Origin: a virus
Lineage: Duplodnaviria; Heunggongvirae; Uroviricota; Caudoviricetes
Length of the DNA stretch: 22,246 nucleotides
Reading direction: 5' to 3' (one strand)
Virus record (IMG/VR): IMGVR_UViG_2706795421_000001
Span: 1 to 22,246 of that record
Shown: positions 1-1,019 of the stretch, piece by piece
Layout of the letters: each line of letters starts with the position of its first letter
How positions within the stretch are numbered: the stretch's first letter is position 1
Notes under the pieces: model-generated
What the model was told of the DNA's origin: nothing
What the model saw: only the letters and a program-made list of their open reading frames with translations
The model's database searches: none
Position numbers and translations under genes: made by a program

Positions 1-46
1 AGCCATTGGTCCCTCCTCTCTGTCAAGAATTCTGTAACATTCACTA

Positions 47-720
47 GGTCACGTCGTGACCCATTGTGTAACAGTCAGCAGACTGTCATTCGGGCAGGGG
101 CATTTGCCCCCTTCCTGCCCTCCTAAACTGACTGGCTTCGTCGAAGCCTTCCCATGCCACCAGCCCGATTATGTAACAGCCTGGCCATGACCATGGCCCA
201 TTGTGTAACGGCATTGCATGCCAGGATCACCAGACAGCCTCAGCCAGGGCAATTGTGTAACCATTCCCCATCCCAGCAGCAGAATATCCCCAGCCAGGAA
301 GCCCATGACCACCCCCATTGCATCTCAGGTGATCAGCCCCTGGAATACGGCCATTGTGTAACGGAACACAGGGACACCAATGCCTACCCATGCCCTAGTA
401 GGCTTCTTCGAAGCGAGCTAATGCCGGCGTCTCTCTACCCTAACGGGAAGAGTTCCCCCTTTATTATGGCGACCGAATAGAGAATGCCCGGTTCATGCGG
501 CCTGTAGGCCATTACAATGGCCAGCCATGGGAAGGATTGCATTACACAATAGGCTTGCCCTCACCCATGAATTGACAGGCCTCTACGAGGCTAGCCAGGC
601 TCAGCTAGTGAGCTTGAGTTACACAATTCATCCTCACATATTGCCCCACTCCCCATGCCACACCCCTGACATTCAACCCCATGCCCCAGCTTCAGCAGAT
701 ACATTTGCTTCGACGAAGCC
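47..720. repeat. Non-coding repeat and palindrome array (candidate terminal repeat, packaging or origin region)
   Basis: CCATTGTGTAAC at 61-72, 198-209 and 351-362; CAATTGTGTAAC at 250-261; ATTATGTAAC at 168-177; reverse copies ATTACACAAT at 541-550 and GTTACACAAT at 618-627. Palindromes at 47-61, 134-148, 507-522 and 707-720, with a degenerate copy at 401-414. The ORFs here lack a convincing RBS. Confidence 0.85.
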
Positions 721-790
721 TGGATATTTCCAGATCATGACGGCGCCTCATGGCCACCCTAGGGTCTTGTTAAATACCCCGGCTGGCTAT

Positions 791-852
791 CTGGAATTTG
801 AAACTGGAAGTGGCCCAGTCCATACCCCCGGCGGCCTCGCTGGAATTTGAAA
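791..852 (+). repeat. 13-bp direct repeat CTGGAATTTGAAA (2 copies) upstream of the first promoter
   Basis: Exact copies at 791-803 and 840-852; related CTGAAATTTT at 951-960 and CTGAATTGAAAA at 976-987. Confidence 0.75.
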
Positions 853-990
853 ACGGATGCCCTCCCCAGTCACACCCCAGGCTAGTTTCCCCAGGATGCC
901 CCCAGATATATTCCCCAGGCTGGTGCCCAGGAAGGGTGCCCCATGCTCATCTGAAATTTTGGCGGGGGTGGGTTTCTGAATTGAAAAATG

Positions 991-1019
991 TTGACAGGCC
1001 CCTGCCGGGGCTTCACAAT
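991..1019 (+). promoter_or_regulatory. sigma70-type promoter (first early promoter)
   Basis: TTGACA (991-996), 17 nt spacer, CACAAT (1014-1019); followed by SD GAGGAGG (1041-1047) and ATG 1054. Confidence 0.8.

What the first reader, a model, noticed from the sequence alone, without database searches (positions are those of the whole stretch)
61..627. Mirror-symmetric iteron-like array (ATTGTGTAAC) around a central palindrome
Seen: five copies point right (61-72, 168-177, 198-209, 250-261, 351-362) and two point left (541-550, 618-627). Between them is the palindrome GGCCATT-AC-AATGGCC (507-522), whose arms are the GGCCATT flank of the repeat itself. Known: short repeats beside terminal repeats guide T7 packaging, and convergent iterons mark plasmid and phage origins. 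Inference: this is a terminase-recognition or replication-initiation site with a dedicated binding protein.
Basis: partly seen in the sequence, partly recalled or inferred. Interest (0 to 1): 0.7.

Follow-up and report, generated by a model that had tools for sequence, protein, structure and literature searches.

The report
Repeat array inside phage terminal repeat
Eight conserved copies of a 10-base word lie inside the 771-base repeat that caps both ends of a Pseudomonas phage genome; they most likely dock a protein that handles the DNA ends (cutting and packaging, or joining) and do not look like a replication origin.

Summary
The repeats are real. ATTGTGTAAC (up to 1 mismatch) occurs 8 times in bases 29-627, against 0.75 expected in the whole window. 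Six copies point right and two point left. The layout is convergent, not mirror-symmetric.

The window is the left end of a Nankokuvirus (KPP10/PAK_P3-like, 86,246 bp). The whole array lies inside the 771-bp direct terminal repeat (DTR). Exact copies occur nowhere else in the genome. All eight keep their place and orientation in 13 relatives, and they vary less than the rest of the DTR (3/80 against 119/691 variable columns).

Published PAK_P3 data show no transcription start in this stretch. I found no DnaA box, IHF site or AT-rich unwinding element, and better origin candidates lie elsewhere.

My best reading (about 0.4) is a protein-docking array at the concatemer junction used for terminase recognition and end processing. 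The rivals are end-joining or loop anchoring, control of the adjacent early promoter (its -10 region is a degenerate copy), recruitment of a host factor, and an origin (least likely). No binding protein was identified.

This scan has noted repeat arrays in terminal repeats of other phages, but with different words. I found no paper describing this motif.

The parts
1..771 (.). Direct terminal repeat (left copy), non-coding; identical to 85476-86246 of the genome
   Evidence: 100% identity, record classed as DTR. Essoh 2015 Table 2 gives 771 bp for Ab03/Ab04/Ab11/Ab17. The CHA_P1 record carries two tandem copies starting at the same base. Variable sites show no codon periodicity.
29..38 (+).
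   Evidence: invariant in 14 phages.
63..72 (+). Motif copy 2, ATTGTGTAAC
   Evidence: The first base is G in three relatives.
168..177 (+). Motif copy 3, ATTATGTAAC (1 mismatch)
200..209 (+). Motif copy 4, ATTGTGTAAC; it abuts the palindrome at 183-198
252..261 (+). Motif copy 5, ATTGTGTAAC
353..362 (+). Motif copy 6, ATTGTGTAAC, with the GGCCATT flank
   Evidence: The motif survives a 14-15 bp deletion next to it in most relatives.
541..550 (-). Motif copy 7 (ATTGTGTAAT on the - strand)
   Evidence: invariant.
618..627 (-). Motif copy 8 (ATTGTGTAAC on the - strand). It lies 44 bp downstream of TTGACAGGCC (572-581), so it resembles a stretched copy of the promoter at 991-1019.
   Evidence: (D14).
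507..522 (.). Palindrome GGCCATT-AC-AATGGCC. Its arms match those of the palindromes that overlie the -10 of two early promoters elsewhere in the genome.
   Evidence: 14/14 identical; genome 82320-82340 and 83288-83308.
183..198 (.). Palindrome GGCCAT-GACC-ATGGCC. The arms are conserved; the centre varies in sequence and length.
134..148 (.). Palindrome family GGCYTC-N3-GARGCC, copy 1
   Evidence: (D2). Only the 3-nt centre varies.
401..415 (.). Palindrome family, copy 2. The arms show a paired T-A to C-G change between phages.
578..592 (.). Palindrome family, copy 3. Five different centres occur in 14 phages and the arms are invariant.
706..720 (.). Palindrome family, copy 4
   Evidence: Two more copies lie at genome 85242 and 85405, just upstream of the right DTR, and none lies elsewhere in the genome.
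92..119 (+). GC-rich hairpin, invariant. Transcripts entering from the upstream early operon end at about this point in PAK_P3.
   Evidence: (z -3.2 for 85-155), (most distant 3' ends at or before PAK_P3 62885, which is about window 115).
395..506 (.). Highly conserved central block between the right- and left-pointing copies. Bases 461-481 have an exact 21-nt inverted copy at genome 85151-85171.
991..1019 (+). First early sigma-70 promoter, TTGACA-N17-CACAAT, outside the DTR. Its -10 region (1006-1019) matches the reverse complement of motif plus flank (349-362) at 12 of 14 bases, so it is a degenerate left-pointing copy.
   Evidence: PAK_P3 P053, TSS 63712, classed sigma70. (2-mismatch hit at 1010-1019).

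Best explanation
The ATTGTGTAAC copies are binding sites for a sequence-specific protein. They mark the non-coding direct terminal repeat, that is, the concatemer junction, of Nankokuvirus phages.

The most likely job is recognition and processing of genome ends during T7-type packaging. An oligomeric packaging protein (an unrecognised small terminase or an accessory factor) would dock on the dispersed, oppositely oriented sites. That would position the large terminase to cut at the two fixed DTR boundaries and allow the repeat to be duplicated.

Shown here:
- location inside the DTR
- restriction to the DTR
- stronger conservation than the surrounding DTR
- no transcription starts in this stretch and no sign of coding

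Inferred: that a protein binds the motif, which protein it is, and that the process is packaging.
For: - The array lies wholly inside the 771-bp DTR (PMC4482731). PhageTerm calls PAK_P3 termini 'DTR (T7-like)' (PMC13510664).
- In T7-type packaging the concatemer carries one repeat copy and terminase must cut at specific sites (PMC10438801).
- Both DTR boundaries are fixed in 12 phages.
- Exact motif copies occur only in the DTR.
- All 8 copies are conserved in place and orientation in 14 phages. Variable columns are 3/80 in the motifs against 119/691 elsewhere in the DTR, Fisher p = 0.001.
- The shorter core CCATTG occurs 7 times in the first 1021 bp (0.6 expected from the window-wide rate), and one copy is at bases 3-8, at the physical left end.
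- The region is non-coding. In PAK_P3 no transcription start maps between the last upstream promoter and P053, and reads entering from upstream end about 115 bases into the DTR; the Hi-C authors describe two gene- and transcript-free anchor sequences at this locus.
- A second DTR-restricted family of palindromes and a hairpin make the whole junction a dense block of cis elements.
- From my own knowledge: short repeated words in two orientations flanking a processing site are the design of lambda cosB, the P1 pac hexamers and SPP1 pacL/pacR.
Against: - No small terminase was recognised. The terminase genes lie about 25 kb away.
- Pakpunavirus phages use the same kind of ends, but their 1153-bp DTR has no comparable array. 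Such an array is therefore not a general requirement in this phage group.
- The motif's link to early-promoter -10 regions points to transcription control instead.
- The Hi-C loop anchored at the termini forms at 3 min, before I would expect late packaging proteins to be made.
- There are no binding or genetic data.
Confidence: 0.4

Rival explanations
1. End-joining or architectural site. A protein carried in the virion or made very early binds the motif on both DTR copies. It pairs the two genome ends for circularisation by DTR recombination, or anchors the early chromatin-like loop, and may also shield the ends.
For: - Hi-C on PAK_P3 shows a 14-kb loop at 3 min with one anchor at the termini. 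[quoted passage not shown]
- A circularisation signal rises from 3 to 10 min.
- The authors propose an encapsidated NAP-like factor and found no known NAP or Pfam DNA-binding domain (PMC13510664).
- The motif is present in equal sets at both ends.
Against: - The most likely second anchor is the gene-free gap at PAK_P3 50570-51081, which is genome 77.6-78.1 kb. It shares no motif with the DTR and has its own repeats.
- Loop borders at untranscribed DNA can arise from transcription alone.
- Homologous recombination between 771-bp repeats needs no specific sites.
Confidence: 0.2
2. Operator or decoy array tied to early transcription. The motif's reverse complement carries CACAAT, the -10 hexamer of the adjacent first early promoter. 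A regulator of early promoters, or RNA polymerase/sigma-70 itself, would bind the array and control or silence transcription across the junction.
For: - The promoter -10 region at 1006-1019 matches the reverse-complemented motif plus flank at 12 of 14 bases.
- Bases 572-627 look like the same promoter with a 44-bp spacer (D14).
- The palindrome at 507-522 has the arms of the palindromes that cover the -10 of two other early promoters.
- The DTR sits between two early operons and has no transcription start of its own.
Against: - No copy has a usable -35 (my own reading of the sequence; one search finds only one promoter-like site in 1-1300).
- The GTAAC half of the motif is absent from the promoters.
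- Other early promoters lack the motif.
- The similarity could come from local duplication rather than shared function.
Confidence: 0.12
3. Recruitment of a host DNA-binding protein to the genome ends, as this scan proposed for MetJ-box arrays in terminal repeats of coliphages.
For: - Earlier scan notes describe host-repressor box arrays in phage terminal repeats (unchecked).
- Bases 507-515 of the palindrome equal the first 9 bases of the AmrZ site of algD, GGCCATTACCAGCC (PMC3325190).
- From my own memory, the motif matches the E. coli Ter core ATGTTGTAAC at 8 of 10 bases, and opposed orientation is the layout of a fork trap.
Against: - The AmrZ ChIP consensus CARATTGCCATCA has no hit with up to 3 mismatches in the DTR, and the window total is at chance.
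- A 9-mer match is expected about 0.7 times per genome by chance.
- The phage has no Tus. To my knowledge Pseudomonas has none either.
- A 30% GC word would be rare in a 66% GC host.
Confidence: 0.08
4. Replication origin with iterons.
For: Repeated oriented short words sit in a non-coding region. Published data indicate a single theta-type start site somewhere in the PAK_P3 genome.
Against: - The core is 10 bp, not 17-22 bp.
- Spacing is 32-105 bp and irregular.
- The junction has no DnaA box and no IHF site, and its richest 30-bp window is only 67% AT.
- No initiator gene lies nearby.
[quoted passage not shown] That does not centre on the DTR (figure not seen).
- Better candidates exist: the 87% AT stretch at genome 23.2 kb between divergent promoters beside the replication genes, and the three 22-bp direct repeats at 77.6 kb.
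Confidence: 0.07
5. Evolutionary residue. The copies are decayed duplicates of promoter pieces with no present function.
For: The motif resembles promoter -10 regions. Indels and local duplications are common around the junction.
Against: The motif columns vary about five times less than the rest of the DTR. All eight copies are kept in five named species plus unclassified isolates from several countries.
Confidence: 0.08

Closest known systems
Phage T7 concatemer junction (160-bp terminal repeat with flanking short-repeat arrays SRL/SRR and the pac signals); details recalled from memory
   Same: Both have a non-permuted genome with direct terminal repeats, and arrays of short repeated words at the junction where terminase must act. 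Both have an early sigma-70 promoter about 1 kb from the left end reading inward.
   Different: As I recall, the T7 arrays are tandem heptamers outside the repeat. Here eight dispersed 10-bp copies in two orientations lie inside a 771-bp non-coding repeat. This phage is a myovirus unrelated to T7.
Terminase recognition sites built from short repeats: P1 pac (4 + 3 hexamers around the cut region), lambda cosB R-sites, SPP1 pacL/pacR (from memory)
   Same: Several copies of a short asymmetric word, in two groups of opposite sense, flank a conserved core and are bound by a small-terminase oligomer.
   Different: Those sites span 100-250 bp next to or inside the terminase genes and belong to cos or headful systems. 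Here the array spans 600 bp, lies 25 kb from the terminase genes, and no small terminase is known.
Untranscribed repeat region / injection stop signal in the left terminal repeat of phage T5 (from memory)
   Same: A non-coding, repeat- and palindrome-rich stretch inside a terminal repeat, beside the first-expressed genes.
   Different: As I recall, the T5 region carries DnaA boxes and IHF sites. None is found here. Two-step DNA transfer is not known for this genus.
Iteron-type origins (lambda ori, P1 oriR, plasmid iterons)
   Same: Repeated oriented short words in non-coding DNA.
   Different: Length, spacing, AT-rich element, DnaA boxes and a neighbouring initiator gene are all missing.
Host-repressor box arrays in phage terminal repeats noted earlier in this scan (MetJ boxes; unchecked notes)
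   Same: A repeat array inside a terminal repeat near the physical end.
   Different: Those are head-to-tail 8-bp units matching a known host operator. Here the copies are dispersed, and no host factor fits.

Membership tests
Iteron-type replication origin | Tandem repeats of about 17-22 bp at regular spacing | tested here: not met
   The conserved core is 10 bp. Start-to-start spacings are 34, 105, 32, 52 and 101 bp, and 77 bp on the other strand.
Iteron-type replication origin | Adjacent AT-rich unwinding element | tested here: not met
   The AT-richest 30-bp window in the junction is 67% AT. The genome's AT-richest site (87% over 60 bp) is at 23.2 kb.
Iteron-type replication origin | DnaA boxes and/or IHF sites | tested here: not met
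   No match in the junction to TTATCCACA (up to 1 mismatch), TTWTNCACA, or WATCAANNNNTTR (up to 1 mismatch).
Iteron-type replication origin | Replication starts there (marker frequency peak) | tested here: inconclusive
   Only the text of PMC13510664 was available. [quoted passage not shown] The figure was not seen.
Terminase recognition (pac/cos-like) site of a DTR phage | Lies at the concatemer junction / physical genome end | tested here: met
   The array is inside the 771-bp DTR.
Terminase recognition (pac/cos-like) site of a DTR phage | Conserved cis sequence restricted to that site | tested here: met
   Exact copies occur only in the DTR. Copies are conserved beyond the DTR background in 14 phages.
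Terminase recognition (pac/cos-like) site of a DTR phage | Bound by the small terminase; needed in cis for packaging | not testable with these tools
   PHROGs recognised no small terminase among the eight ORFs tested around the large terminase. EMSA and transduction assays are needed.
T7-type SRL/SRR arrays | Tandem heptamer arrays flanking, not inside, the terminal repeat (from memory) | tested here: not met
   The copies are dispersed, 10 bp long and inside the repeat.
Sigma-70 promoters | -35 and -10 hexamers at 16-18 bp spacing and a mapped transcription start | tested here: not met
   The only promoter-like site in 1-1300 is at 991-1019. In PAK_P3 there is no TSS between 61068 and 63712.
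Tus-Ter replication fork trap | Ter-like sites in two opposed groups plus a Tus protein | tested here: not met
   The opposed groups are present, and the core matches Ter at 8 of 10 bases (from memory). There is no PF05472 match in the phage genome at E up to 1, while the E. coli control is positive.
AmrZ (ribbon-helix-helix) operators of P. aeruginosa | Match to the ChIP-seq consensus CARATTGCCATCA or to GGC half-sites 5 bp apart | tested here: not met
   No hit with up to 3 mismatches in the DTR; 11 hits in the window against 11.5 expected. Only a 9-nt identity with the algD site. The half-site spacing in the palindrome is 10 bp, not 5.

The most novel reading that the evidence does not exclude
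The array is the landing pad of a still-unidentified protein, virion-borne or very early. This protein would pair the two terminal repeats, drive circularisation, and anchor the 14-kb early loop seen by Hi-C in PAK_P3. That would make it a sequence-specific 'phage chromatin' organiser with a defined DNA code, and it may also occlude the -10 of the first early promoter.
Probability: 0.17. Interest if true: 0.65.

Novelty: new variant of a known kind. Interest (0 to 1): 0.42.

Why it matters
PAK_P3, KPP10 and their relatives are model therapeutic phages of P. aeruginosa. How they recognise, join and package their ends is unknown. A 2026 Hi-C study asked which factor structures the termini region but had no DNA site to test. 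This array gives a defined 10-bp word, with six further palindromes, for pull-downs, ChIP and mutagenesis. It also helps in orienting and completing Nankokuvirus assemblies, many of which are deposited circularly permuted or lack the repeat.

Tried and rejected
- **Replication origin.** No DnaA box, IHF site or AT-rich element was found, and the published coverage skew does not centre on the termini.
- **Promoters.** Only one promoter-like site lies in 1-1300, at 991-1019. PAK_P3 has no TSS in the DTR.
- **Small genes.** Several records annotate ORFs in the DTR, but variable sites show no codon periodicity and no transcription start maps there.
- **Known RNA family.** No Rfam match at E up to 1.
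- **Tus-Ter fork trap.** No Tus in the phage.
- **AmrZ operator.** The ChIP consensus is absent from the DTR, and the 9-mer identity with the algD site is within chance.
- **Chi-like protection of ends.** Rejected by reasoning. A 30% GC 10-mer cannot be a frequent host recombination signal in a 66% GC genome.
- **N4-type hairpin promoters.** The palindromes have 6-bp stems and 3-nt loops. I rejected this because no TSS maps there and PAK_P3 is described as hijacking the host's transcription machinery.
- **Shared motif between the two presumed Hi-C anchors.** None beyond chance 9-mers.
- **Same architecture in the sister genus.** The Pakpunavirus Ab1 DTR has no such array.
- **Intermediate relatives in IMG/VR.** Contigs with about 50% TerL identity have only 119-127 bp assembly overlaps as 'DTRs' and background motif counts. 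The two-copy pattern scan of viral contigs found only KPP10 plus unrelated chance hits.
- **Epa18.** This is an incomplete Nankokuvirus record lacking the region.
- **Literature.** No paper in the library holds the motif in a phage context.
- **Helical phasing.** Copies at 63, 168, 200 and 252 are an integral number of turns apart, but 1-bp indels between them in several relatives argue against strict phasing.

Full report
**Where the window lies.** The first 1100 bases match 36 Pseudomonas phage records, all Nankokuvirus (KPP10/PAK_P3-like myoviruses), at 87-99.5% identity. The window is bases 1-22246 of an 86,246-bp virus record. Its first 771 bases recur exactly at 85476-86246. That size and repeat length equal those given for phage Ab03 by Essoh et al. 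2015, who mapped a 771-bp direct terminal repeat (DTR) from read pile-ups (PMC4482731). PhageTerm on PAK_P3 likewise reports 'DTR (T7-like)' termini at about 63 kb of its deposited, permuted sequence (PMC13510664). PAK_P3 62771 corresponds to window base 1. The CHA_P1 record carries two tandem copies that start at the same base.

**The observation.** ATTGTGTAAC with at most one mismatch occurs at 29, 63, 168, 200, 252 and 353 on the + strand and at 541 and 618 on the - strand. The window holds nine matches against 0.75 expected, and no shuffle reached nine. In the whole genome, exact copies occur only in the two DTR copies. The two one-mismatch singletons elsewhere (12306, 72207) are at chance level, with 3.1 expected. 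The palindrome at 507-522 is exact. The array is convergent but not mirror-symmetric: copy numbers are 6 and 2, and distances from the palindrome are unequal. The conserved unit is about 10 bp, with a C-rich tendency upstream and no consensus downstream.

**Conservation.** I aligned the window with 13 relatives from five named species plus unclassified isolates, from several countries. All eight copies keep their place and orientation. Only 3 of 80 motif columns vary, against 119 of 691 other DTR columns (Fisher p = 0.001). One of those three is produced by a neighbouring deletion that still regenerates the motif. One-base indels between copies occur in several phages, so exact helical phasing is not maintained.

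**Anatomy of the junction.** The DTR holds more than this array.
- A family of palindromes, GGCYTC-N3-GARGCC, occurs at 134, 401, 578 and 706. Two more copies lie at 85242 and 85405, just upstream of the right DTR, and none lies elsewhere in 86 kb.
- The arms of these palindromes are invariant while the three central bases vary freely. One copy shows a paired T-A to C-G change.
- The palindrome at 183-198 tolerates a change of centre length. That fits hairpin or cruciform formation better than a dimeric protein site.
- An invariant GC hairpin lies at 92-119.
- A 21-nt piece of the conserved central block (461-481) has an exact inverted copy at 85151-85171.
- The hexamer CCATTG, which is the 5' part of three motif copies, occurs 7 times in the first 1021 bases against 0.6 expected. 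It points right at 3, 61, 198, 315 and 351 and left at 515 and 1016. The first copy is at the physical left end.
- The + strand of bases 1-1000 has 19 runs of four or more C and only 2 runs of G (GC skew -0.18).

**Transcription and coding.** ONT-cappable-seq of PAK_P3 (bioRxiv 10.1101/2023.10.13.562163, supplement) lists no transcription start between 61068 and 63712. Reads from the upstream early operon end at or before 62885, which is about window 115, at the hairpin. The start at 63712 belongs to promoter P053, classed sigma-70. It is the window's TTGACA-N17-CACAAT at 991-1019, the only promoter-like site in 1-1300. The Hi-C authors describe two sequences at this locus as devoid of genes and transcription. 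Variable sites in the DTR show no three-base periodicity in any annotated small ORF. Rfam gives nothing. The array is therefore DNA-level, not RNA or protein.

**Origin test.** The junction has no DnaA box, no IHF site and no AT-rich stretch; its richest 30-bp window is 67% AT. The repeats are too short and too irregular for iterons. [quoted passage not shown] An origin at the DTR would not give that (I could read only the text). Two better candidates exist.
- An 87% AT stretch lies at genome 23.2 kb, between divergent promoters beside the replication genes. It corresponds to PAK_P3 ~84.3 kb, near the extremity of the PAK_P3 map.
- A 500-bp gene-free gap at 77.6-78.1 kb carries three 22-bp direct repeats.

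**Link to early promoters.** The reverse complement of the motif contains CACAAT, the -10 hexamer of P053. The 14 bases 1006-1019 match the reverse complement of 349-362 at 12 positions. Bases 572-627 repeat the TTGACAGGCC-hairpin-CACAAT layout of P053 but with a 44-bp spacer. The arms of the 507-522 palindrome equal those of the palindromes lying over the -10 of two other early promoters, at genome 82309 and 83277. Those two are apparently the '41-nt promoter repeats' of Henry et al. 2015 (PMC4309531). Either the junction was built from promoter pieces, or one factor reads both.

**Host-factor leads.** Earlier notes of this scan describe host MetJ-box arrays in terminal repeats of coliphages (unchecked), so I looked for a Pseudomonas counterpart.
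- The palindrome shares 9 bases with the AmrZ site of algD (PMC3325190). However, the AmrZ ChIP consensus (PMC3946381) has no match in the DTR, and the window total is at chance.
- From memory, the motif resembles the E. coli Ter core at 8 of 10 bases, but the phage has no Tus.

Neither lead holds.

**Beyond the genus.** The Pakpunavirus Ab1 DTR (1153 bp) contains a gene and no such array, although it has its own GATAGC-N3/4-GCTATC palindromes. IMG/VR relatives with about 50% TerL identity gave no usable termini. As far as these data show, the array is confined to this genus.

**How it most likely works.**
- Shown: a conserved, DTR-restricted, non-coding array of an asymmetric 10-bp word in two orientations with no transcription start, embedded among other junction-specific elements.
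- Inferred: a sequence-specific protein binds it.
- Packaging (about 0.4). T7-type packaging needs precise cuts at both repeat boundaries of a junction that holds a single repeat copy (PMC10438801). The boundaries are fixed across the genus. I therefore rank docking of the packaging machinery first.
- End pairing or loop anchoring early in infection (about 0.2). The Hi-C loop at 3 min supports this. The lack of a shared motif at the presumed second anchor weakens it.
- Control of early transcription (0.12).
- A host factor (0.08).
- Residue of duplications (0.08).
- An origin (0.07).

PHROGs recognised no small terminase among the ORFs tested around the large terminase, and the Hi-C authors found no Pfam DNA-binding protein apart from the polymerase. 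The binding partner is unknown.

**Novelty.** Repeat arrays at phage ends are a known kind (T7, P1, lambda, SPP1, T5). This one differs in lying inside a wholly non-coding repeat, in its dispersed convergent layout and in its kinship with promoter -10 regions. I found no paper that mentions the motif. It is a useful, testable handle on an open question raised in 2026, but not a surprise in kind.

Noticed in passing
window 134-148, 401-415, 578-592, 706-720; genome 85242-85256, 85405-85419: Six copies of the palindrome GGCYTC-N3-GARGCC occur only at the concatemer junction. Their arms are invariant, their 3-nt centres vary freely, and one copy shows a paired arm change. They look like hairpins or cruciforms.
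   Followed up: partly
window 461-481 and genome 85151-85171: An exact 21-nt inverted repeat links the conserved centre of the DTR to unique DNA 305 bp upstream of the right DTR.
   Followed up: no
window 1-1000: Strong strand asymmetry: 19 runs of four or more C against 2 runs of G on the + strand, densest at 860-945 just upstream of the first early promoter. This could be a Rho-loading (rut-like) or G-quadruplex-prone stretch.
   Followed up: no
window 777-857: A 49-bp local duplication carries CTGGAATTTGAAA. It is present in this phage and VL12, partly in PAK_P5, and absent from the other relatives.
   Followed up: partly
genome 23213-23300 (just beyond the window end): This is the AT-richest spot of the genome (87% over 60 bp). 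It is split by the hairpin GGGAGTGGGCAAGTGCCCCCTCCC, which recurs at 85336-85359. It lies between divergent promoters next to the replication genes, which makes it the best origin candidate. The gene of the small protein proposed as a NAP in PAK_P3 (gp160) starts here.
   Followed up: partly
genome about 77600-78100 (PAK_P3 50570-51081): A second gene-free gap carries three direct repeats AAGGTACYYGACAGATTTTYAC about 33 bp apart and two copies of TGTAGCACGTCA. It is probably the other Hi-C loop anchor, or an origin.
   Followed up: partly
genome 25623-26445 and 27027-28443: A 274-aa protein that matches only the ATPase part of large terminase lies upstream of the full 472-aa large terminase, with a head-fibre-like gene between them. 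No small terminase was recognised.
   Followed up: no
L009 (PAP-JP) 1501-1690: PAP-JP has a 127-bp tandem duplication that repeats the first 58 bases of the DTR and the unique DNA before it. The join is at one of the junction palindromes.
   Followed up: no
L020 (Pakpunavirus Ab1) 112-126, 287-302, 970-984: The sister genus has its own DTR palindromes, GATAGC-N3/4-GCTATC. Short hairpin-like palindromes may therefore be the feature the two genera share, rather than the 10-bp word.
   Followed up: no
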